Source of the DNA: Alphaproteobacteria bacterium
GTDB taxonomy: Bacteria > Pseudomonadota > Alphaproteobacteria > SP197
DNA length: 64,000 nucleotides
Assembly (NCBI GenBank): GCA_965228895.1
Contig: OZ245842.1
Location: 2,336,001 to 2,400,000 of the forward strand
Reading direction: 5' to 3'
Under the pieces are notes generated by a model. The model was not told where the DNA came from. It did not search any database and saw only the letters and a list, made by a program, of their open reading frames with translations. Below, piece by piece: positions 2,834 through 41,166 of the stretch. Position 1 is the stretch's first letter. Each line of letters starts with the position of its first letter. A program made the translations under genes and the position numbers.

Positions 2834-3977
2834 CGCGGCGGATCATATCCTTGGCGATCACGAGTTGCTGGATCTGCGACGTGCCTTCGTAGAGCCGGTA
2901 GATCCTGACATCGCGATAAAGCCTGGAGACCGCGTAGTCGTTGATGTAGCCGGCGCCGCCGTGGATCTGGACGGCGCGGTCGGCGACCCGCCCGAGCATT
3001 TCGCTGCAGTAGTACTTGGCTTCCGCTGCAATGCGCGGCAGCTTCTCGCCGGCTTCGTAACGCTGGGCGGCGTCACGCACCAGTGCCCAGCCGACATCGT
3101 GTTCGGTTTGGCTATCGGCCAGCATGGCCTGGATGAGCTGGAAATCCGCGATGGCCTGACCGAACTGCTGGCGTTCGATGGCATAAGCCACGGATTCCTG
3201 GATCAACCGGTCGGCGAGGCCGCAGCAGCATGCCGCAATATGCAACCTGCCCTTGTCCAGCACCTTCATGGCCGTCTTGAACCCGGTTCCCTCGACACCG
3301 CCGATCAAAGCCGATCCCGGGATCCGGCAGTCCTCGAAGATGACATCGCAGATCTGACCACCTTTCTGGCCCATCTTGTTTTCAGGTTTGCCCAGCCTGA
3401 TGCCCGGCGTATCGGCTTCGACCAAAAAGGCGGATACGCCGCGTGCGCCCTTTTGGTCAGGATCGGTGCGCGCCATGACCGTGAACAGATCCGCCGTCGG
3501 CGCGTTCGTGATGTAGCGCTTGGTGCCGTTGAGCACGTAACCGTTGCCGTCGCCAGTGGCCCGGGTCTTCACCGAGGCGGCGTCGGAGCCAATATCCGGC
3601 TCGGTCAGTGCGAACGAGGAAATCATGTCGCCGGAAGCAAGCTTCGGCAGATAAGCCTGTTTCTGTTCCTCCGTACCGTCGATCAGAATGCCTTGGGAGC
3701 CGATGGCAACATTGGTGCCGAAGGCCGAGCGAAAGGCCGGTGCCGCATGGGTGATCTCATAGGCCACCCTCACCTCCTCGGTGATCGAGAGACCCAGACC
3801 GCCATACTCTTCGGGGATCGTCAGGCCGAACAGACCCATCGCCTTCATCTCGTCGATAATGGCCGGCGGTATCGTGTCGGTGGCGTCGACCTCGGCCTCG
3901 GCCGGGATCAGGCGTTCCCCGACGAACCGCTGGATCGTTTTGACAAACTGCTCAAGTGTTTCCTGATCGAGCGCCAT
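2814..3977 (-). CDS. Acyl-CoA dehydrogenase
   Basis: FALTEPDIGSD, LNGTKRYITN, ERQQFG, QIHGGAGY, LYEGTSQIQ; start MALDQE at 3977. Confidence 0.93.
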   Translation of the reverse strand: MALDQETLEQFVKTIQRFVGERLIPAEAEVDATDTIPPAIIDEMKAMGLFGLTIPEEYGGLGLSITEEVRVAYEITHAAPAFRSAFGTNVAIGSQGILIDGTEEQKQAYLPKLASGDMISSFALTEPDIGSDAASVKTRATGDGNGYVLNGTKRYITNAPTADLFTVMARTDPDQKGARGVSAFLVEADTPGIRLGKPENKMGQKGGQICDVIFEDCRIPGSALIGGVEGTGFKTAMKVLDKGRLHIAACCCGLADRLIQESVAYAIERQQFGQAIADFQLIQAMLADSQTEHDVGWALVRDAAQRYEAGEKLPRIAAEAKYYCSEMLGRVADRAVQIHGGAGYINDYAVSRLYRDVRIYRLYEGTSQIQQLVIAKDMIRRARADHG

Positions 3978-22750: not shown

Positions 22751-22811
22751 CGTAGTCTCCTCCACGACGTCAGATGTCAGATAAGTCTACATGCTAAAGG
22801 AGGGCGGCGCC

Positions 22812-23633
22812 ATGAGCGACGAAACCACCATTAAAAACCGGTTCGTGGTCGAAAAGGACGGTCATATCGCCTGGCTGATCTTCGACCGGCCGGAAAAACT
22901 CAATGCCATGTCGAGCCAGGGATGGCGCGACTTCGGTCATCACCTGCGCGAGCTGATCGAAGACCGCGACATCCGCTGCCTGATCCTGGCCGGCGAAGGC
23001 CGCGGCTTTCTGGCGGGCCACGACGTCGGCGAAATGGTCGAGCATGTCGAGCAGTTCGAGACCGGCGAATACACGCTGGGCGATCTTCATGAGAATCAGA
23101 AGCTGCTGCAGGAGACCACGCGCCTGATCCGCAAGGCGCGTTTTCCCGTCATCGCCGCCGTACAAGGCGTCGCCGTCGGCGCCGGCTGCGAGGTAACGCT
23201 GGCCTGCGATCTCGTAGTCGCGGCCGAAGGTACGCTGTTCGGTTTCCCGGAGGTCAATGTCGGTGTCACCATCACCAATGGCGGCACCTGGCTCTTGCCG
23301 CGCAAGGTCGGCTTGGCGCGGGCGCGCGAGCTTGCCTATACCGGCGACTTCGTCGATGCCGAGGAAGCCTATCGTATCGGCCTCGCCAACCGCGTCGTTC
23401 CCGCGGGCGACCTGCGCGAGGAAGCGGAGAAGCTGGCTCGGCGGATCGCCGGCCGCGCGCCGCTGCCCGTCCAACTGCACAAGACGATGATTGATCGCGG
23501 CCAGGAGACTTCGCTCGAGACCATGTTGAACTTCGAGACGGAGTCACTGGTCGTTACCGCCCGGACCAACGATCACGGCGAAGGCGCCCGTGCCTTTTTC
23601 GAGAAGCGGGAGCCGGAGTTTACCGGCACATAG
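22812..23633 (+). CDS. Enoyl-CoA hydratase/isomerase family protein
   Basis: RPEKLNA, FLAGHD, AVGAGCE, FPEVNVG. Confidence 0.9.
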   Translation: MSDETTIKNRFVVEKDGHIAWLIFDRPEKLNAMSSQGWRDFGHHLRELIEDRDIRCLILAGEGRGFLAGHDVGEMVEHVEQFETGEYTLGDLHENQKLLQETTRLIRKARFPVIAAVQGVAVGAGCEVTLACDLVVAAEGTLFGFPEVNVGVTITNGGTWLLPRKVGLARARELAYTGDFVDAEEAYRIGLANRVVPAGDLREEAEKLARRIAGRAPLPVQLHKTMIDRGQETSLETMLNFETESLVVTARTNDHGEGARAFFEKREPEFTGT

Positions 23634-23637
23634 TGCG

Positions 23638-24351
23638 TTAGACGGCGTGGCCCGCGATGGCACGATGCAGCGCTGCGCGGGCCAACAAGCGAGTCGAATC
23701 GAGTGGTCGTATCGGCGCGTTGGTCTCGTCGACCACAAGTGGGATCTCCGTGCAGCCCAGTATGACGGCATCGCAGCCTTCGCGCCCGAGCCGCTCGATG
23801 ACGTGTACGATGTAGTCGGTTGATTCCGCCTTGGTAAAACCACGCACCAGTTCGTCCATGATGATGCGGTCGATCTCGGCCCGCTCGTCGCGATCGGGGA
23901 TCATGTACCGCAATCCACGGCTGGCGAGTTTCTCGGGATAGACGCCGCTCTCGACCAGCCAGCGTGTTCCCGTTAACGCGAGACAGCGGCAGCCTCGTTC
24001 GACAGCCACTTCGGCAACGACATCGGCGATGTGCAGCCACGGCAGCGGTGACCGTTGTTCGACACGGTCAAAGGCCTGGTGAATGGTGTTGTCGGGGCAA
24101 ATCAGGAAGTCGGCGCCGGCGGCCGCCAACTTGTCGGCCGAAGCCAACATCAGGTCGGCGATACCCTGCATATCTCCGCGCTCCAGGCAGTCGGTATAGG
24201 CCTGAAGCGAAGGGGTATGCATGGTGACTTCCGGATGCGCGTGGCCGTCCAGAAACGACGGCCCTTCGGTGCAGATTGTCCGATAACACAAGGACGCACC
24301 TTCGGCCGAACAGGCGGCAATACCAATGTGCTGTGGGGTTAGCCCCGCCAC
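23638..24351 (-). CDS. Aspartate/glutamate racemase family protein
   Basis: ICPDNTIH, ILGCTEIP, LDSTRLLA. Confidence 0.85.
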   Translation of the reverse strand: MAGLTPQHIGIAACSAEGASLCYRTICTEGPSFLDGHAHPEVTMHTPSLQAYTDCLERGDMQGIADLMLASADKLAAAGADFLICPDNTIHQAFDRVEQRSPLPWLHIADVVAEVAVERGCRCLALTGTRWLVESGVYPEKLASRGLRYMIPDRDERAEIDRIIMDELVRGFTKAESTDYIVHVIERLGREGCDAVILGCTEIPLVVDETNAPIRPLDSTRLLARAALHRAIAGHAV

Positions 24352-24366
24352 GTCAGGCGACGCTTC

Positions 24367-25326
24367 TCAATCGCCAGCCCGCTCACTCGGCGTGGCTTCT
24401 TCGCGCAGCGACGCATTTAACAGGCGGATGTGTTCGACGCCGATACCGCAACAGCCGCCGATAGCCGTCGCGCCCTGGGCAATCCAGCCCGCCGCCTGCT
24501 CGACCAGGTCGGCCGGCGGAATGATGTCCTTGAACTGCCATTGCGGCATTTCGAAATAGCCGGAGTCCGGATAAGCCATCATCGGGCCGGACCAGTGTTT
24601 ACGAAGGATGTCGAGCGCCGGTCCGATCACGTGGACATTGGTGTGCATCGGCCCCATGACCGCGCCGCCGCCGGCCTGGATAGCCGCATCGACGACTTCG
24701 TCGAACGGATAGTTTTCCCAGGCGAAGGAGACGATCCGGCCGTCATCCTCCTGGCGTGCGCTCATGCCGACCCAGACGGGCAGACCGGTCTCGTGGGCGG
24801 CCTCGATCAGGGGTTTCATCTGCGACGGACGCGACATCATCTCCATGATGATGAGGTCGGCGCCGGCATCCTTGATGACGCCGGCGAGTTCGCGGGCGTT
24901 GGCCTGCAGTTGTTCGCTCGACGGCAAGGCATCTGGATCGTTACGCGCCTCACCGGGCACCATCGGCATCATGTGGGACATGGAGGCGGCCACAACGACC
25001 TCGCGGTCGCCGGCGGCCCGGTCGCGCGCTTCGCGGGCGATCTCGACGGCGCGCCGGTTGAGCGGCTCGACCTTGTCGCCCATGCCGGCCGGCCCCAGCA
25101 TGTTGCGGGAACTTGCATAGGTGTTGGCCGTGATCACGTCAGCGCCGGCGGCGATGTAATCCTCGTGGACCTGGCGCACGGCATCGGGGTCGACTTCGGT
25201 CGCCAACGCGCACCAGGCATCGCTGTTCATCGGGACGTCGCGGCGTTCAAGCTCGGTGCCGGTACCGCCGTCCAGAATGGCGATCCCGCCAGCCGCCAAT
25301 CGTGCGTGAAGGGTGCTTAGGTCCAT
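24367..25326 (-). CDS. Homocysteine S-methyltransferase family protein
   Basis: LDGGTGTEL, HEDYIAAGADVITANTY, AYPDSG, GGCCG. Confidence 0.9.
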   Translation of the reverse strand: MDLSTLHARLAAGGIAILDGGTGTELERRDVPMNSDAWCALATEVDPDAVRQVHEDYIAAGADVITANTYASSRNMLGPAGMGDKVEPLNRRAVEIAREARDRAAGDREVVVAASMSHMMPMVPGEARNDPDALPSSEQLQANARELAGVIKDAGADLIIMEMMSRPSQMKPLIEAAHETGLPVWVGMSARQEDDGRIVSFAWENYPFDEVVDAAIQAGGGAVMGPMHTNVHVIGPALDILRKHWSGPMMAYPDSGYFEMPQWQFKDIIPPADLVEQAAGWIAQGATAIGGCCGIGVEHIRLLNASLREEATPSERAGD

Positions 25327-25353
25327 CGCCGCCTCCCCCGATGCGGAAAAGAT

Positions 25354-25652
25354 TGGTGCGCCCGCTAGGACTCGAACCTAGGACCCACTGATTACTCCAC
25401 CACCACGGCTTTCGCCGCCCCTTTCGGGTTTGTGGCCCGGACTATACCTTCGCCCTATCCCCGAGGGAACGTAGGCGGGTGCCGTCTAGTCTCTACACCT
25501 TCCCCAGGACATGCTCCCTGGGGCTTGGCTCGGGATTGCCACTGGCCAAAGGCCGCTGAGGGTTCCCCGAATTTGACACCTTGTCACCCGACGGTTTCCC
25601 GCCGGGGCTCCCAATCGAAAGTCAGTTGCTCTACCACCTGAGCTACGGGCGC
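25354..25652 (-). tRNA. tRNA-Lys(UUU), intron-containing; 5' exon 25652-25618 (35 nt), 3' exon 25394-25354 (41 nt)
   Basis: Joined exons give a 76-nt cloverleaf: acceptor GCGCCCG/CGGGCGC-ACCA, D arm GCTC...GAGC, anticodon arm ACTGA-CTTT|TAA-TCAGT, T arm CTAGG-TTCGAGT-CCTAG, encoded CCA. Confidence 0.95.
25395..25617 (-). ncRNA. Group I self-splicing intron (IC3, Azoarcus-like), 223 nt, no ORF
   Basis: Minus strand: P AAATTCGGGGAA, Q AATCCCGAGC, R GTGTAGAGACTAGA, S AAGGTATAGTCC; P3 GGTGTC/GGCACC; P7 GACTA/TAGTC; GAAA-capped P2 and P9; 5' exon ends in U, intron ends in G. Confidence 0.95.
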
Positions 25653-25702
25653 TACCGGGACGGGGTTTTAGCTGATTACACCGGTAATGCAATACGTCAA
25701 CG

Positions 25703-26458
25703 TCAGCCGCCGAAGACCTGCTGCAACAGCTCCGTCGAGCGCGCGACGGGATCGGTCCTGATCGCCGCTTCCTGTTCGGCCAGATAATGAAAGATGCCGT
25801 CTAACGTTCCATCAAGCGCATAGTCAGTCAGGTCCGCCTGAACATCCGGCACAAAGGGGATGCTGTCGTATTCGCCCATCATGGCGTCATAGGACTGGAT
25901 GGCGCCGACCTCGCTCAAGCTGCTGTCGACGATCGGGCGCATGCGTGTCTTCAGATCCTCGCTGGTCGTGCGCCGGAAATACTGAGTCGCCGCATCGTCG
26001 GGGCCGTTCAGGATGCCGCGCGCGTCATCCAGCGTCATCTGGTCGATGGCGCCGAAGAACACATCAATCGCCTCGCCCGATGCCTCTTCGGCGGCGCGGT
26101 TGATCCGGAGCTCCAGGTCATCGGCCATGTCCGACATGCCGACGGCCTTGAGCGCGTCTTGCACCGTACCCAGTGTTTCCGGCAGCGGGATATGAATCGA
26201 CGGGTCGGCGTTGAAGCCGTCGGCGACGCTGACCTGATCGACCGTGCGTTCGCTGGCGAGACGCAAGGCCTCACGCAAACCGGAATCAATTTCGCTGTTG
26301 CTGAGCCCGGCACCCAGATTGCCACCGCCATCGCTGGACCCGCTGCTGCCGAGATCGCCCAGCGAATCGGTAATCCCGTCAAGCAGACCATCGGCGCGTA
26401 CTGCGGCGGGCAGCGTCAAGCCGGCCACCACGCCAAAAACAAAGCTACGACGTCTCAT
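25703..26458 (-). CDS. DUF4197 family exported protein
   Basis: MRRRSFV N-terminus, GLREAL, IHIPLP, NRAAEEA, AATQYFR, IRTDPVARSTELLQQVFG. Confidence 0.85.
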   Translation of the reverse strand: MRRRSFVFGVVAGLTLPAAVRADGLLDGITDSLGDLGSSGSSDGGGNLGAGLSNSEIDSGLREALRLASERTVDQVSVADGFNADPSIHIPLPETLGTVQDALKAVGMSDMADDLELRINRAAEEASGEAIDVFFGAIDQMTLDDARGILNGPDDAATQYFRRTTSEDLKTRMRPIVDSSLSEVGAIQSYDAMMGEYDSIPFVPDVQADLTDYALDGTLDGIFHYLAEQEAAIRTDPVARSTELLQQVFGG

Positions 26459-26517
26459 CGTTTCTCCCCCCAATAGTTTGCGCTCTCACGTGATACGGGC
26501 CAGCAGGCCCGGATGGA

Positions 26518-27267
26518 TCATGCGGCCTCGGTCAGAATGATCGGGCCCCGCTTGGTTGCAACCAGCGTGTGTTCGTACTGTACCGAGCGATACTGCGGCG
26601 CGGTGACCAATGTCCATCCGTCTTCGGTGTCATCTGCCCAGGTCGCGCCGGTCGATAGAAAGGGTTCGATCGTGAACACCATGCCTTCTGTGATGACCCG
26701 CTTGTCATGGCGGTCGCGCCATGTCGGGATAACGGTGGGGTCCTCGTGAAGGCTTCTGCCGACGCCGTGGCTCGCAAGATTGCGGATCAGCGAATAACCC
26801 TTCTTGTCGGCGAATGTCTCAATGCGCGCGCCGATACGGTTCAGTCGGCGGCCCGAACGCACCTCGTGGATGCCCTGCCACATAGCGCGGCGACCGTCGC
26901 GGCACAACTGCGCGATGTCCGACTCCACCGGCGGCACCGGAAAGCTGCCGCCGGTATCGGCGAAGTAGCCGGCTTTCTCGGCAGAGACGTCGATGTTGAC
27001 GAGATCGCCCGGCCGGATCACGCGCTCGCCCGGAATGCCATGGGCGACCTGTTCGTTGATGCTGATGCAGGTTGCGCCGGGAAAGTCGTAGCACAACTCC
27101 GGCGCCGACTGAGCACCATCCGCTTCGAGCAAGCGTCGGCCGAGATCGTCGAGCTCCTGCGTCGTCATGCCAGGCTCGATCGCCGCGGCCATGGCTTTTA
27201 GGACGCGTGCGACAATCGCGCCAATCTCCTTCAGTGCTTCTAGGTCGTACTGGTTGGCTATGGTCAT
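26518..27267 (-). CDS. map: Type I methionine aminopeptidase
   Basis: CISINEQVAHGIP, NIDVS, DTG, HGVGRSLHE, FTIEPF, QYEHT. Confidence 0.93.
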   Translation of the reverse strand: MTIANQYDLEALKEIGAIVARVLKAMAAAIEPGMTTQELDDLGRRLLEADGAQSAPELCYDFPGATCISINEQVAHGIPGERVIRPGDLVNIDVSAEKAGYFADTGGSFPVPPVESDIAQLCRDGRRAMWQGIHEVRSGRRLNRIGARIETFADKKGYSLIRNLASHGVGRSLHEDPTVIPTWRDRHDKRVITEGMVFTIEPFLSTGATWADDTEDGWTLVTAPQYRSVQYEHTLVATKRGPIILTEAA

Positions 27268-27306
27268 GTATGTCCATATGGCCTTTCGAATGATCGTCGG
27301 CCAACA

Positions 27307-28470
27307 CTATAGCGGCATTATGTCACCGCTTTCATAGCTGGCCAGGAACCCATCGGCCCACGTATCCAAGCTGCTATCGGTAATGGCGTCACGCAAGGTC
27401 GCCATGAGCGTTTGATAGAACGTGATGTTGTGGGCCGTCAGCAACATGGGACCCAGCATCTCCTGGCAGCGGAACAGATGATGCAGGTAGCCCCGGCTGT
27501 GCCGTGTGCAGGCGACACAGCCGCAGGTCTCGTCCAGCGGGCGCGTGTCGTCCTGGTGGCGCGCGTTGCGGATGTTGACGGTGCCGCGTGCGGTAAAGGC
27601 CTGGCCGGTGCGACCGGACCGGGTCGGCAACACGCAATCGAACATGTCGATGCCGCGTTTCACCGCACCGATGATGTCGTCGGGCCGGCCGACCCCCATC
27701 AGATAGCGCGGTTGGTCCGCCGGCAGATGCGGCACGGTCATGTCGAGCACATCGAACATGGACTGCTGGCCCTCGCCAACCGCAAGGCCGCCGATCGCGT
27801 AACCGTCGAAGCCGATCGCCGTCAGGGCATCGGCCGAGGCGCGGCGCAGGTCTTCGAACGTGCTGCCCTGAACGATACCGAACAGGCCGTAGCCCGGCCG
27901 CTCCACAAAGGCCTCGCGGCAGCGTTCCGCCCACCGCATGGAACGCTCCATCGACTCGCGGGCGATATCGTGGCTGACCGGCCAGGCCGTGCACTCGTCC
28001 AGAACCATGGTGATGGTCGCGTCCAGGTCGTTTTGGATCGCCATGGCGCGTTCGGACGTCAGTTCATGACGACTGCCGTCGACATGGCTCTTGAACGCGA
28101 CGCCCGCTTCGGTGATTTCGCGCCGTTCGGCCAGCGAGAATACCTGATAGCCACCGGAATCGGTCAGAATCGGTCCCGGCCAGTCCATGAACCGGTGCAG
28201 TCCGCCAAGGGCAGCCACCCGTTCCGAACCCGGCCGCAGCATGAGGTGATAGGTGTTGGCGAGAACAATATCGGCACCGGCAGCGCGCACCTGGTCGGCC
28301 TGCATGCCCTTGACCGTCGCCGCCGTACCGACCGGCATGAAGGCCGGTGTGCGTACAGGGCCATGGGCGGTCGCCAACGTGCCCGTACGGGCGGTGCCGT
28401 CCGTGGCGCTGATCGTCAGCGCCATGGCCGCCGGCGCGTCGCTGGCTAAAACGGGTTCGCTGTTGGTCAT
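27307..28470 (-). CDS. tgt: tRNA-guanine transglycosylase
   Basis: [39 protein letters not shown] zinc site. Confidence 0.96.
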
Positions 28471-38310: not shown

Positions 38311-41166
38311 ATGCACAAGTCGATCCGCATCCGCGGCGCGCGCGAACACAATCTGAAAAACGTGGATCTTGAGATCCCGCGCGACCGCCTTGTGGTGATC
38401 ACGGGACTGAGCGGCTCGGGCAAGTCGTCGCTGGCGTTCGACACAATCTATGCCGAAGGCCAGCGACGTTACGTCGAGAGCCTGTCGGCCTATGCCCGTC
38501 AGTTCCTGGAGCTGATGGAAAAGCCGGATGTCGAGCATATCGAGGGCCTGTCGCCAGCGATCTCCATCGAGCAGAAGACGACCTCGAAGAACCCGCGTTC
38601 GACCGTCGGCACGGTGACCGAGATCCACGACTACATGCGCCTTCTATGGGCGCGCGTCGGCGTGCCCTATTCGCCGGCGACCGGCCTGCCGATCGAAAGC
38701 CAGACCGTTAGCCAAATGGTCGACCGCGTCATGGCGATGGAGGCTGGCACCCGGTTGATGCTGCTCGCGCCGATCGTCCGGGGCCGCAAGGGCGAATACC
38801 GCAAGGAGATGGCCGAGCTGATGAAGCGCGGCTTCCAGCGGGTCAAGATCGATGGCGAGGTCTATCAGATCGAAGATGCGCCGAAGCTCAACAAGAAGCT
38901 GAAGCACAACATCGAGGTCGTGGTCGACCGTGTGGTTGTGCGCGAAGGCTTGGAGACGCGGCTGGCCGACAGCATCGAGATGGCGCTCAGCCTGGCCGAC
39001 GGCCTGGTCTTCGCCGAAAACGCGGATACCGGCGACCAGACCATTTTCTCAGCCAAGTTCGCCTGCCCCGTCTCCGGCTTCACCATCGACGAGATCGAAC
39101 CGCGCCTGTTCTCGTTCAACAATCCGTTCGGCGCCTGCCCCGCCTGTGACGGTCTGGGCTCCAGGCTTTACTTCGATCCGGAACTCGTTGTACCCGACGA
39201 GCGCTTGTCGCTGGGCAAAGGCGCGATCGCGCCATGGGCCAACTCGTCATCGCAGTACTACGTGCAAACCCTGGAATCGCTGGCCACCCACTTCGGCGAG
39301 GACATGACAACGCCTTGGGCGACGCTGCCCAAGGTCATGCGCGAGACCATTCTCTATGGTTCCGGCGATGAACCGGTGACCATGACCTTCGATGACGGCT
39401 TGAGGACCTACGAAACCCACAAGCCTTACGAAGGCGTCATTCCCAATATGGACCGGCGCTGGCGTGAGACGGAAAGCGAGTGGGTGCGCGAGGAGCTCGC
39501 CAAGTACCACAATACCGCGCCGTGCGAATCCTGCGGCGGCTATCGGCTGAAACCGGAATCTCTGGCGGTCAAGATCGACCGGCTACATATCGGCGAGGTC
39601 AGCGGGATGTCGATCGGCGGCGCCGGCCGTTGGTTCGAAGAGCTGGAAGCCAAGCTCAGCGAAAAGCAGCAGGCGATCGCCCATCGAATCCTGAAGGAGA
39701 TCAACGAGCGCCTGGGTTTCCTGAACAAGGTCGGTTTGGAGTATCTGACCCTGTCGCGTAACTCAGGATCGCTGTCGGGCGGTGAAAGCCAGCGTATCCG
39801 TTTGGCATCACAGATCGGCTCGGGTCTGACCGGCGTGCTCTATGTGCTCGACGAACCGAGCATCGGCCTGCATCAACGTGACAATCAGCGCCTTTTGGAC
39901 ACGCTGGTGCGCCTGCGCGACCTCGGAAACACGGTGATCGTCGTTGAACACGACGAAGAAGCGATCCGCGCCGCCGAATACGTCGTCGATATGGGGCCGG
40001 GGGCCGGCGAACATGGCGGCAAGGTCGTCGCCCAAGGCCTGCCGGCCGAGGTGATGGCCAATCCCGACAGCCTGACCGGCCAGTATCTGACCGGCATGCG
40101 CCAGATCGAGGTGCCGAAGAAACGCCGCAAGGGCAAGAAAAAGCAGGCGCTGAAGGTCGTCGGCGCAACCGCGAACAACCTGCAGAAGGTAACCGCGACC
40201 ATCCCGCTGGGCACCTTCACCTGTGTGACGGGGGTTTCGGGCGGCGGCAAGTCGACCCTGATCATCGAAACGCTCTATCAGGCGCTGGCCAAGAAGCTGA
40301 ACGGCGCGCGCATGCATCCAGGCGCCCACGACAAGCTGACGGGCACGGAATTCCTCGACAAGGTCGTCGATATCGACCAGTCGCCGATTGGCCGGACACC
40401 TCGGTCCAATCCGGCAACCTATACCGGCGCCTTCACGCCGATCCGTGACTGGTTCGCCGGTCTGCCGGAAGCCAAGGCGCGCGGCTACAAACCGGGCCGG
40501 TTCAGCTTCAACGTCAAGGGCGGTCGTTGCGAGGCCTGCCAGGGCGACGGATTAATCAAGATAGAGATGCACTTCCTGCCGGATGTTTATGTCCAGTGTG
40601 ATGTCTGTAAGGGCGCCCGGTACAATCGAGAAACACTCGAAGTTCTGTTCAAAGACAAGTCGATAGCCGATGTCCTTGATATGACAGTCGAAGAAGGGCT
40701 TGGTTTTTTCAGTGCTGTGCCAGCCATTCGCCAGAAACTTGAGATGTTGAATCGGGTCGGGCTCGGCTACATCAAGGTCGGCCAGCCGGCGACCACGCTT
40801 TCCGGCGGCGAGGCCCAGCGGGTAAAGCTGGCCAAGGAGCTGTCACGCCGCGCGACCGGACGGACCCTCTATATCCTGGATGAACCGACCACCGGCCTCC
40901 ATTTCGAAGACGTCCGGAAACTGCTCGAGGTGCTCCATGCGCTCGTCGAGCAAGGCAACACGGTGGTCGTGATCGAGCACAATCTGGAGGTCATCAAGAC
41001 CGCCGATTGGATCATCGATCTGGGTCCCGAAGGCGGCGACGGCGGCGGCCGCATCGTCGCAGCCGGCACCCCCGAAGCGGTCAGCGGCGTCGATGAGAGC
41101 TACACCGGGCACTACCTGGCCGGATTGCTCAAGCCATCACGCAAAACGGCAGACGCCGCCGAATAG
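38311..41166 (+). CDS. uvrA: Excinuclease ABC subunit A
   Basis: [21 protein letters not shown], two LSGGE/DEP cassettes, zinc fingers. Confidence 0.97.

What the first reader, a model, noticed from the sequence alone, without database searches (positions are those of the whole stretch)
25354..25652. tRNA-Lys(UUU) split inside its anticodon (35/36) by a group I intron
Seen: the exons join to a clean 76-nt tRNA with anticodon loop CUUU|UAA, and the 223-nt insert has all group I core elements (P, Q, R, S, P3, P7) and a terminal G. The splice sites are fixed by pairing. P1 pairs exon CUUU plus the first intron C with GGGAG, with the U.G wobble at U35. P10 pairs intron GAUUG with 3' exon UAAUC. 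Established: the classic bacterial tRNA group I introns are Leu(UAA), fMet(CAU), Ile(CAU) in Azoarcus and Arg(CCU) in Agrobacterium, at other loop positions; a Lys(UUU) host is not among them. Inference: if this is the only Lys(UUU) gene, AAA decoding depends on a ribozyme, and standard tRNA callers would report the tRNA as missing.
Basis: partly seen in the sequence, partly recalled or inferred. Interest (0 to 1): 0.92.

Follow-up and report, generated by a model that had tools for sequence, protein, structure and literature searches.

The report
Group I intron splitting tRNA-Lys(UUU)
The only gene for the lysine tRNA that reads AAA in this alphaproteobacterium is interrupted inside its anticodon by a small self-splicing-type (group I) intron, one member of a family of such lysine-tRNA introns found in several dozen other bacterial genomes.

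Summary
On the minus strand, window 25652-25354 is a tRNA-Lys(UUU) gene: exon 1 is 35 nt, the intron 223 nt, exon 2 41 nt with CCA. The intron lies between anticodon positions 35 and 36.

- **Intron identity:** it matches Rfam Intron_gpI (48.3 bits, E 3e-11, 1.7 bits under the gathering score). It has a U35·G wobble in P1, a terminal G and a 5-bp P10.
- **Structure:** across 37 related Lys introns, 96.4% of cells pair and 40 of 62 pairs show compensatory changes. This includes the P3/P7 pseudoknot.
- **Dependence:** the genome has no other Lys(UUU) gene, yet about 27% of Lys codons in long ORFs are AAA. Splicing is therefore needed.
- **Tool behaviour:** default ARAGORN and Rfam at gathering report nothing. 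ARAGORN's intron mode miscalls tRNA-Arg(UCG).

It is not unique. I found 41 distinct Lys(UUU) introns, mostly in alphaproteobacterial MAGs, in two registers: 34/35 (26) and 35/36 (15). They form one well-supported clade next to alphaproteobacterial Leu(UAA) introns.

A 2020 preprint lists 21 host/site types, but its table is an image I could not read. No RNA data were available, so splicing is inferred. I rate it a new member of a known kind, of moderate interest.

The parts
25618..25652 (-). tRNA-Lys(UUU) exon 1: tRNA positions 1-35, ending with anticodon U34 U35
   Evidence: Sequence. ARAGORN on the in-silico spliced gene. Collinear with uninterrupted Lys(ttt) genes of relatives. Contigs of other organisms break exactly at 25617/25618.
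25395..25617 (-). Group I intron, 223 nt, no ORF
   Evidence: RF00028 at 48.3 bits, E 3.1e-11. Covariation of P2-P9 in 37 relatives. 67-75% identity to Leu(UAA)/Arg(CCU)/Lys introns of other genomes.
25354..25394 (-). tRNA-Lys(UUU) exon 2: positions 36-76, U36 through the encoded CCA
   Evidence: Homology of other organisms' contigs breaks at 25394/25395.
25617..25621 (-). P1 5' strand: exon C32 U33 U34 U35 plus intron c1. The 5' splice site follows U35 (25618).
   Evidence: Pairs with GGGAG at 25612-25608, with U34·G and U35·G wobbles. All 15 Lys 35/36 introns found have GGGAG here.
25608..25612 (-). Internal guide sequence GGGAG (P1 3' strand)
25612..25616 (-). P10 intron strand GAUUG, which pairs with exon 2 UAAUC (25394-25390)
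   Evidence: 5 pairs, the first being U·G.
25587..25606 (-). P2 hairpin, 8 bp with a GAAA loop
   Evidence: Sequence. All 8 pairs show changes on both sides among relatives (helix 2).
25575..25580 (-). P3 5' strand GGUGUC
   Evidence: Pairs with 25483-25478. 100% of cells paired, 3 of 6 pairs compensatory (helix 3).
25478..25483 (-). P3 3' strand GGCACC
   Evidence: helix 3.
25529..25571 (-). P4 (25571-25565 with 25535-25529) enclosing P5
   Evidence: helices 4-6.
25498..25528 (-). P6/P6a hairpin
   Evidence: helices 7-8.
25487..25493 (-). P7 5' strand G-A(bulge)-GACUA
   Evidence: Pairs with 25444-25439. 100% of cells paired. Two pairs switch U-A/C-G and U-A/A-U/G-C among relatives (helix 9). 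It is a pseudoknot with P3.
25439..25444 (-). P7 3' strand UAGUCC
   Evidence: helix 9.
25452..25476 (-). P8 hairpin
   Evidence: helices 10-11.
25402..25436 (-). P9 stem carrying two GAAA-capped hairpins
   Evidence: helices 12-14. Sequence.
25395..25395 (-). Terminal (omega) G; the 3' splice site follows it
   Evidence: Sequence. This is the only site that gives a 7-nt CUUUUAA loop together with U at -1 in a wobble pair.

Best explanation
This is the resident tRNA-Lys(UUU) gene of an alphaproteobacterial chromosome, interrupted between anticodon nucleotides U35 and U36 by a 223-nt group I intron with no ORF. The intron belongs to the bacterial tRNA-intron lineage called IC3 in the literature.

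The proposed pathway is:
1. The gene is transcribed as a roughly 300-nt precursor.
2. The intron folds into P1-P9, with the P3/P7 pseudoknot.
3. An external guanosine attacks after U35, which sits in a U·G wobble of P1.
4. The terminal G then enters the G site, P10 aligns exon 2, and the exons are ligated.
5. The product is a 76-nt tRNA with anticodon loop CUUUUAA.

The genome has no other Lys(UUU) gene, and C34 of tRNA-Lys(CUU) reads only AAG. Decoding of AAA therefore depends on this splicing.

**Shown:** the sequence anatomy, the covariance-model match, covariation, uniqueness of the gene, AAA usage, and synteny with intron-less orthologues.

**Inferred:** that splicing occurs, that it is autocatalytic, and that the 5' cut follows U35 rather than U34.

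The intron belongs to a single clade of Lys introns. The clade's nearest relatives in my sample are alphaproteobacterial Leu(UAA) introns, which share the same CUU 5' context. My inference is transposition from Leu to Lys at 34/35, followed by a one-nucleotide shift to 35/36 in the sub-lineage that includes this window.
For: - **Covariance model:** RF00028 matches full length, 48.3 bits, E 3.1e-11. It is the only hit in the 5.53-Mb genome.
- **Spliced product:** ARAGORN calls the in-silico spliced product tRNA-Lys(ttt), 76 nt.
- **Collinearity:** the spliced product is collinear with uninterrupted Lys(ttt) genes in 22 of 23 relatives' loci, with 64-69 of 76 positions identical.
- **Splice-site anatomy:** P1 with U·G, P10 of 5 bp, and a terminal G.
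- **Covariation on 37 Lys introns:** 62 pairs in 14 helices, 96.4% of cells paired. 40 pairs change on both sides. 0 of 500 shuffles reach any observed measure. Slid controls give 26-46% paired and 9-16 such pairs.
- **Sole gene:** no second Lys(UUU) gene by ARAGORN or BLAST.
- **Codon use:** AAA is 26.6% of Lys codons.
- **Conservation in the genus:** both same-genus genomes (G001, G002) keep the intron at 96% identity with the same flanking genes.
- **Synteny with an intron-less orthologue:** a genus of the same family has an uninterrupted Lys(UUU) next to the same homocysteine S-methyltransferase gene.
- **Clade:** all 41 Lys introns plus one Lys-like gene form a clade with support 100/100.
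Against: - No RNA evidence exists here. No RNA run holds the stretch, so splicing and the junction are untested.
- The Rfam score is 1.7 bits below the curated gathering score.
- Single-sequence folding is not distinctive: z = -1.55, and 12 of 200 shuffles fold at least as well.
- P1 has two adjacent U·G wobbles, so the ribozyme could in principle also cut after U34. With the same 3' site, that would give a 6-nt loop.
- A second U/terminal-G combination exists formally (CU|AGUAA).
- The direction Leu to Lys and 34/35 to 35/36 rests on an outgroup rooting with several unstarred branches.
Confidence: 0.9

Rival explanations
1. The gene is a dead tRNA gene inactivated by a decayed intron, and AAA is read some other way.
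For: No RNA data. The Rfam score is just under gathering. In one other genome (G124) an intron-bearing Lys-like gene with an odd anticodon loop sits beside an intact Lys(UUU), so decay of such genes may happen.
Against: There is no other Lys(UUU) gene. AAA occurs 8,216 times in 2,516 long ORFs. Every core helix is intact in this sequence and kept by compensatory changes across relatives. The intron is 96% identical in the two congeners, and the differences in stems are paired. In G043, G094 and G133 the next-best matches I examined to a Lys(UUU) query were Lys(CUU) or other tRNA genes.
Confidence: 0.04
2. The intron is real, but the 5' cut follows U34 (34/35, as in the sister Lys introns), or both U34 and U35 are used, so that part of the product is aberrant.
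For: U34·G and U35·G are both wobble pairs in P1. In the 26 related 34/35 introns the cut follows U34.
Against: Exon 2 starts UAA here, not UUAA. A cut after U34 joined at the terminal G would therefore give a 6-nt loop. All 15 35/36 introns have the extra G in the guide (GGGAG) together with UAA, and all 26 34/35 introns have UUAA. This co-variation fits a fixed U35 site.
Confidence: 0.05
3. The exons belong to another tRNA: ARAGORN's Arg(UCG) reading, or the formal CU|AGUAA reading.
For: ARAGORN -i calls tRNA-Arg(tcg) i(39,221). CU|AGUAA also has U at -1 and G at the intron's end.
Against: The ARAGORN reading puts neither a U at -1 nor a G at the intron's end, and leaves 2 intron nucleotides in the loop. 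In the CU|AGUAA reading, U33 pairs with A (not a wobble) and the anticodon AGU has A34. The tRNA body matches Lys(UUU) genes of relatives at 64-69 of 76 positions. Williams 2020 describes such ARAGORN miscalls.
Confidence: 0.01

Closest known systems
[quoted passage not shown]
   Same: Same fold. Sequence identity is 67-73% in the core. P2 and P9 are GAAA-capped. There is no ORF. The guide GGAG pairs with the same CUU of the anticodon loop. These are the nearest non-Lys relatives in the trees.
   Different: The host is tRNA-Lys(UUU). The site is one nucleotide further 3' (35/36 rather than 34/35). The guide has an extra G (GGGAG).
Lys(UUU) 34/35 introns found here in other genomes (for example L005/G043 and the Pseudolabrys and Sphingomicrobium MAGs)
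   Same: Same host tRNA and same intron clade, with support 100/100.
   Different: Splice site CUU|UUAA with guide GGAG, against CUUU|UAA with GGGAG in the window.
tRNA-Arg(CCU) intron of Agrobacterium and Bartonella (BbgpI)
   Same: An alphaproteobacterial tRNA anticodon-loop group I intron without an ORF. The host tRNA gene is unannotated because callers miss it. It was shown to self-splice (PMC7717549, passages read). It is homologous by BLAST.
   Different: The site is 36/37, 3' of the anticodon. It forms a separate clade with support 98/98.
Azoarcus tRNA-Ile(CAU) intron (recalled as the structural model of IC3; cryo-EM paper PMC13168695 seen in a search listing only)
   Same: A small (~200 nt) tRNA intron. 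As I recall it, the overall architecture with GAAA tetraloops on P2 and P9 is the same.
   Different: The host and the site (36/37) differ. I made no direct sequence comparison, because no Azoarcus sequence was fetched.

Membership tests
Group I intron (Rfam RF00028 Intron_gpI) | Covariance-model match | tested here: inconclusive
   48.3 bits against a gathering score of 50. E is 3.1e-11 and 6.7e-11 genome-wide, over the full model 1-253. The match is statistically clear but sits under the curated cut-off, so the gathering scan lists nothing.
Group I intron | Conserved core helices P3-P8 with the P3/P7 pseudoknot, kept by compensatory changes | tested here: met
   P3, P4 and P7 have 100% of cells paired. 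40 of 62 pairs overall change on both sides. 0 of 500 shuffles reach the observed values.
Group I intron | 5' splice site after a U in a U·G wobble of P1, formed with an internal guide sequence | tested here: met
   U35·G (and U34·G) in P1, CUUUc/GGGAG.
Group I intron | Terminal G (omega G) before the 3' splice site, and P10 with the 3' exon | tested here: met
   G at 25395. P10 is UAAUC/GAUUG, 5 bp.
Group I intron | Guanosine-binding P7 (a G-C pair next to a bulged nucleotide) | tested here: met
   P7 is G-A(bulge)-G-A-C-U-A with U-A-G-U-C-C. The G-C pairs never vary in 37 sequences (helix 9). That this arrangement is the G site is recalled knowledge, not tested here.
Group I intron | Self-splicing with GTP and Mg2+ | not testable with these tools
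   No RNA run holds the locus.
Bacterial tRNA anticodon-loop introns (IC3 lineage) | Homology to the Leu(UAA) and Arg(CCU) tRNA introns, and a site within the 7-nt anticodon loop | tested here: met
   BLAST identity of 67-75% to introns that ARAGORN and manual reading place in Leu(UAA), Arg(CCU) and Thr(GGU) genes. Trees. The IC3 label itself comes from Williams 2020 and was not tested.
tRNA-Lys(UUU) | Cloverleaf with anticodon UUU after removal of the insert, and a body like Lys(UUU) of relatives | tested here: met
   ARAGORN calls tRNA-Lys(ttt), 76 nt. 64-69 of 76 positions are identical to 22 uninterrupted Lys(ttt) genes. The discriminator is A and CCA is encoded.
tRNA-Lys(UUU) | Charging by LysRS and decoding of AAA | not testable with these tools
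   Inferred from it being the only Lys(UUU) gene.
Mobile group I intron with homing endonuclease | An ORF for a homing endonuclease inside the intron | tested here: not met
   The intron is 223 nt. No ORF of 80 aa or more overlaps 25354-25652. The longest Lys(UUU) introns found are 315 nt.

The most novel reading that the evidence does not exclude
The Lys-intron clade may record stepwise retargeting of an ORF-less ribozyme by reverse splicing within and between anticodon loops. The proposed series is:
1. Leu(UAA) 34/35.
2. Lys(UUU) 34/35, which has the same CUU context and the same GGAG guide.
3. A one-nucleotide slide to Lys(UUU) 35/36 after the guide gained a G. L065, a 34/35 intron that already carries GGGAG, sits beside the 35/36 group in one tree (support 70/90).
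4. Lys(CUU) 35/36 (G347), and a Lys-derived gene whose loop reads UAU (G124).

If true, this would be a natural series showing intron sliding by one nucleotide inside an anticodon. In the window's type, two adjacent U·G wobbles in P1 would mean that something other than the wobble alone sets the cut.
Probability: 0.35. Interest if true: 0.65.

Novelty: new member of a known kind. Interest (0 to 1): 0.45.

Why it matters
**Annotation.** In this genome, and in others of the clade examined (G043, G094, G133), the decoder of AAA is invisible to default tRNA callers and to Rfam at gathering thresholds. The tRNA set looks incomplete as a result, and ARAGORN's intron mode gives a wrong identity (Arg).

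**Physiology.** About a quarter of lysine codons depend on a ribozyme reaction. The intron sits in the part of the tRNA that must later be modified. (U34 and A37 modifications of tRNA-Lys are established knowledge and were not examined here.)

**Evolution.** The family offers 41 natural variants in two adjacent registers, plus host switches. That is good material for testing how ORF-less group I introns change target sites.

[quoted passage not shown] This is therefore an extension, not a new principle.

Tried and rejected
- **RNA evidence:** The look-up of sequencing runs listed no RNA holder, only three runs kept as contigs. Read laying on them showed no joint across the intron. Contigs cannot show splicing, so this says nothing about expression.
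- **Single-sequence folding**: z = -1.55, not informative. RNAalifold cannot draw the P3/P7 pseudoknot. It drew two small spurious helices, which I replaced by P7 and the base of P6 before counting.
- **Promoter/terminator scan** of 25150-25900: 0 sites of either kind.
- **Viral contigs** scanned with the Lys-intron pattern: 0 matches.
- **AU tests**: a single clade for the 35/36 introns (p 0.33), for the 34/35 introns (p 0.46) or for Lys without the UAU gene (p 0.42) cannot be rejected. I therefore do not claim repeated shifts, although the free trees need 2-3 changes.
[quoted passage not shown] Those inserts are 22-49 nt, too short to be group I introns, so I do not count it as a precedent.
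- **Literature, text searches** for group I intron with tRNA-Lys, tRNALys, tFind, and Lys.3Ug/Lys.4Ug found no text naming a Lys(UUU) group I intron.
- **Literature, Williams 2020:** Table 1 and Fig. 3 are images and its supplements are closed. I cannot say whether Lys is among its 17 new types. Given its method (Rfam at 18 bits or more, plus ARAGORN, on 80,413 genomes), I think it likely.
- **Literature, other sources:** tRNAscan-SE 2.0, the tmRNA database paper and Hausner 2014, read as passages only, do not mention Lys introns.
- **Sampling limits:** the Lys introns were found by BLAST with this intron and by a pattern derived from it. Unrelated Lys introns would have been missed, so 'one clade' holds only for what these searches can see.
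- **Rows left out:**
  - 4 of the 41 Lys introns (294-315 nt) were left out of alignment A2.
  - 4 of the 51 class-level genomes with only 22-37-nt matches (G419, G175, G056, G350) were not examined.
  - 3 fetched stretches gave no intron-tRNA call (L112, L123, L124).
  - 3 of 39 pattern loci are cut off by the end of the locus or contig (L070, L074, L085), and 1 is a false positive (L093).
Full report
**What is there**

The feature lies on the minus strand.
- Window 25652-25618 is 35 nt that read as tRNA positions 1-35.
- 25617-25395 is a 223-nt insert.
- 25394-25354 is 41 nt that read as positions 36-76, with CCA encoded.

I joined the two outer parts by coordinates in a script. The result is a 76-nt cloverleaf that ARAGORN calls tRNA-Lys(ttt), with anticodon loop CUUU|UAA.

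The insert matches Rfam Intron_gpI over the whole model (1-253) at 48.3 bits. E is 3.1e-11 in a 601-nt search and 6.7e-11 for the whole genome, where it is the only hit. The score is 1.7 bits under the family's gathering score of 50.

That explains the tool behaviour. The default gathering scan of the 64-kb window returns nothing, neither intron nor tRNA. Default ARAGORN finds no tRNA in the window. With introns allowed, ARAGORN miscalls the locus as tRNA-Arg(tcg) i(39,221). Williams 2020 describes this kind of error (whole text read).

**Anatomy**

Read directly from the sequence and checked by script:
- **P1:** exon C32 U33 U34 U35 plus intron c1, paired with intron GGGAG (25612-25608). U34 and U35 both form U·G wobbles.
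- **P10:** exon 2 UAAUC paired with intron GAUUG.
- **Last intron base:** G (25395).
- **P2:** 8 bp with a GAAA loop.
- **P3:** GGUGUC/GGCACC.
- **P4:** UUCGGGG/UCCCGAG.
- **P6:** a long hairpin.
- **P7:** G-A(bulge)-GACUA with UAGUCC.
- **P9:** a stem carrying two GAAA-capped hairpins.

P1 holds two adjacent wobbles, so it does not fix the 5' cut on its own. The cut after U35 follows from the terminal G and from the need for a 7-nt loop.

Of the eight formal positions, only two combine U at -1 with G at the intron's end.
- **CUUU|UAA** is the Lys(UUU) reading.
- **CU|AGUAA** is the alternative. In it U33 pairs with A (no wobble) and the anticodon would be AGU.

**Is the fold real?**

I collected 41 distinct Lys(UUU) introns (sources below) and aligned 37 of them. 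The 4 with inserts of 294-315 nt were left out. Each row runs from anticodon stem to anticodon stem (A2).

RNAalifold recovered P2, P3, P4, P5, P6, P8 and P9. I added P7 as a pseudoknot and the base of P6, and removed two small spurious helices.

On that structure:

| Measure | Observed | Controls |
|---|---|---|
| Pairs / helices | 62 / 14 | n/a |
| Cells that pair | 96.4% | slid by 1-3 columns: 26-46% |
| Pairs changed on both sides | 40 | slid: 9-16 |
| Shuffles reaching any of the five measures | 0 of 500 | n/a |

P3, P4 and P7 are paired in 100% of cells. In P7, two pairs switch between U-A, C-G, A-U and G-C. Single-sequence folding is not informative by itself (z = -1.55).

**Is it the only Lys(UUU) gene, and does it matter?**

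- ARAGORN on the 5,528,408-base single-contig genome finds 49 tRNAs and a two-piece tmRNA. For lysine it finds only Lys(ctt), at 1226108.
- BLAST of the in-silico spliced tRNA against the genome finds the two exons at 100%, then Lys(CUU) at 87.5%, and nothing else Lys-like.
- 3,688 ORFs have 300 codons or more. In the 2,516 of them that pass a simple GC3/GC2 filter, AAA occurs 8,216 times against 22,728 AAG, or 26.6% of Lys codons.

C34 reads only G-ending codons (established decoding rules). AAA therefore needs the product of this gene.

**Relatives and origin of the locus**

- Both same-genus genomes (G001, G002) carry the whole precursor at 96% identity. They have the same neighbours: a homocysteine S-methyltransferase, DUF4197 and an M24 peptidase.
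- 22 of 23 loci from other relatives hold an uninterrupted Lys(ttt) gene. These include other genera of the same family. The genes are collinear with the spliced product, with 64-69 of 76 positions identical. The one locus without a call is a contig end.
- In one genus of the same family, the uninterrupted gene sits next to the same methyltransferase gene (58% identity). The intron therefore sits in the resident, syntenic gene.
- In public contigs laid on the region, one contig in each of two runs spans the whole stretch with the intron: identical in X1 (possibly the source of this DNA) and 2 differences in X2.
- Contigs of other organisms in the same runs match only the exons. They break exactly at 25394/25395 and 25617/25618. 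Loose ends at the exon 1 boundary (25618; 3 contigs in X1, 1 in X2) continue as the start of exon 2, as in an uninterrupted Lys(UUU) gene.

**How common is it?**

*Class-level BLAST.* A BLAST of the 223-nt intron against 401 genomes of the class (G000 included) hit 51. I looked at 47 of these 51 genomes.
- 7 carry the intron in Lys(UUU): G000, G089, G133, G260 and G388 at 35/36, and G043 and G094 at 34/35.
- 1 carries it in Lys(CUU) at 35/36 (G347, 366 nt).
- 1 carries it in a Lys-like gene whose loop ARAGORN reads as Ile(tat) (G124).
- The rest are in Leu(UAA)-type, Arg(CCU) or Thr(GGU) genes.
- G136 gave no call.
- The 4 genomes not examined had matches of only 22-37 nt.

*Pattern scan.* An exact-pattern scan of one genome for each of 185,579 species found 39 loci. 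It required the Lys 5' half, a GGAG guide and the GTCAAA of J3/4.
- 35 resolve as Lys(UUU) plus intron.
- 1 is a false positive.
- 3 are cut off by the end of the locus or contig.

The record titles are mostly alphaproteobacterial MAGs: Pseudolabrys, Beijerinckiaceae, Xanthobacteraceae, Sphingomicrobium, Sphingobium, Rhizobiaceae, Rubrimonas and Parasphingorhabdus. There is one isolate, Neomegalonema perideroedes DSM 15528. A few MAGs are labelled Gammaproteobacteria, Opitutaceae or Acidobacteriota; mis-binning cannot be excluded.

After removing 3 duplicates, the set is 41 distinct sequences: 15 at 35/36 and 26 at 34/35. All 15 of the 35/36 introns have guide GGGAG with exon 2 UAA. All 26 of the 34/35 introns have UUAA, and all but one (L065) have guide GGAG. 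No match was found in viral contigs.

**Phylogeny**

The tree used 66 introns. The P1/guide columns and the 3' tail were left out.
- All 41 Lys introns plus the G124 gene form one clade with support 100/100.
- The Arg(CCU) introns form another (98/98).
- Alphaproteobacterial Leu(UAA) introns lie between them when the tree is rooted on Arg.

AU tests do not reject a single clade for the 35/36 type (p 0.33) or for the 34/35 type (p 0.46).

I then added the Lys(CUU) intron and two Thr introns, giving 69 rows.
- 12 of the 15 35/36 introns, the Lys(CUU) intron and the G124 gene form a starred group (95/95).
- That group is nested among the 34/35 introns.
- L065, a 34/35 intron that already has GGGAG, sits next to the 35/36 group (70/90, unstarred).

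My reading, as inference: a Leu(UAA) intron, whose guide GGAG pairs with CUU, moved to the identical CUU context of tRNA-Lys(UUU). One sub-lineage then shifted by one nucleotide along the U run, and the window's intron belongs to it. The rooting and several branches are weak. In addition, the Lys set was gathered with this intron as bait.

**Other genomes of the clade**

I searched five genomes with an uninterrupted Lys(UUU) gene as query.
- In G043, G094 and G133 the best further matches are Lys(CUU) or other tRNAs. No uninterrupted Lys(UUU) was seen among the loci examined. They therefore seem to depend on the interrupted gene, as G000 does.
- G089 also has an uninterrupted Lys(UUU) inside an array of nine tRNA genes.
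- G124 has an intact Lys(UUU) beside the odd intron-bearing gene.

**Literature**

- **Williams 2020** (bioRxiv 10.1101/2020.01.27.920355, whole text read) names four classical types: Leu position 3, Arg position 5, fMet position 2 and Ile2 position 5, all IC3. It reports 17 new ones from 80,413 genomes. The list is in an image table and in supplements that I could not see.
- **Text searches** found no paper naming a group I intron in bacterial tRNA-Lys(UUU).
- **PMC5733544** claims introns of 22-49 nt in a cyanobacterial Lys(CTT) gene. These are too short to be group I introns (passages read).

**Verdict**

The observation and the interpretation are right. The sequence is a real, structurally intact group I intron at 35/36 of the only tRNA-Lys(UUU) gene. 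It is a new member of a well-known kind, with a host and site outside the four characterised types. It is not a singleton, and it has probably already been counted in a 2020 survey. Splicing itself remains to be shown.

Noticed in passing
L036 (G124:C24, about 39118-39397): An intron of the Lys clade (252 nt, with a long extra hairpin at its 5' end) interrupts a tRNA with a Lys-like body. ARAGORN reads the loop as Ile(tat), with a shifted anticodon stem and G at position 37. The same genome has an intact Lys(UUU) (L101). It could be a recruited or a decaying copy. It sits on a long branch (0.85-0.95).
   Followed up: partly
L116 (G347:C1, about 518200-519500): A tRNA-Lys(CUU) gene is split at 35/36 (CUCU|UAA) by a 366-nt intron of the same clade. 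The guide GGGGAG pairs with CUCU. The P6 region holds a run of short GATATG-like repeats.
   Followed up: partly
L051 (G334), L114 (G150), L125 (G305): tRNA-Thr(GGU) genes are interrupted at 36/37 by related group I introns. G150 and G305 also carry a Leu(UAA) intron.
   Followed up: partly
L103 (G089:C42:5009-7313): An array of nine tRNA genes (Val, Thr, Lys(UUU), Leu, Gly, Leu, Arg, Pro, Ala) holds an uninterrupted Lys(UUU), in a genome that also has the intron-bearing Lys(UUU).
   Followed up: no
L072 and L095 (two contigs of one MAG record set, CAVSXH01): Two intron-bearing Lys(UUU) genes occur in one bin, with closely related introns of 315 and 214 nt. This may be a true duplicate or a binning effect.
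   Followed up: no
L065 (OY969784.1, about 3637-3870 of the locus): A 34/35 Lys intron whose guide already reads GGGAG, as in the 35/36 type. It is a possible intermediate of the one-nucleotide shift.
   Followed up: partly
G000:C1:1205059-1205369 (outside the window): ARAGORN reports a two-piece (permuted) tmRNA with tag ANDNEAFAVAA, and a tRNA-SeC elsewhere in the genome.
   Followed up: no
window 22791-28470: The neighbours are ordinary housekeeping genes: enoyl-CoA hydratase, Asp/Glu racemase family, homocysteine S-methyltransferase, DUF4197, M24 peptidase and queuine tRNA-ribosyltransferase (Pfam). No integrase or transposase lies beside the tRNA gene.
   Followed up: yes
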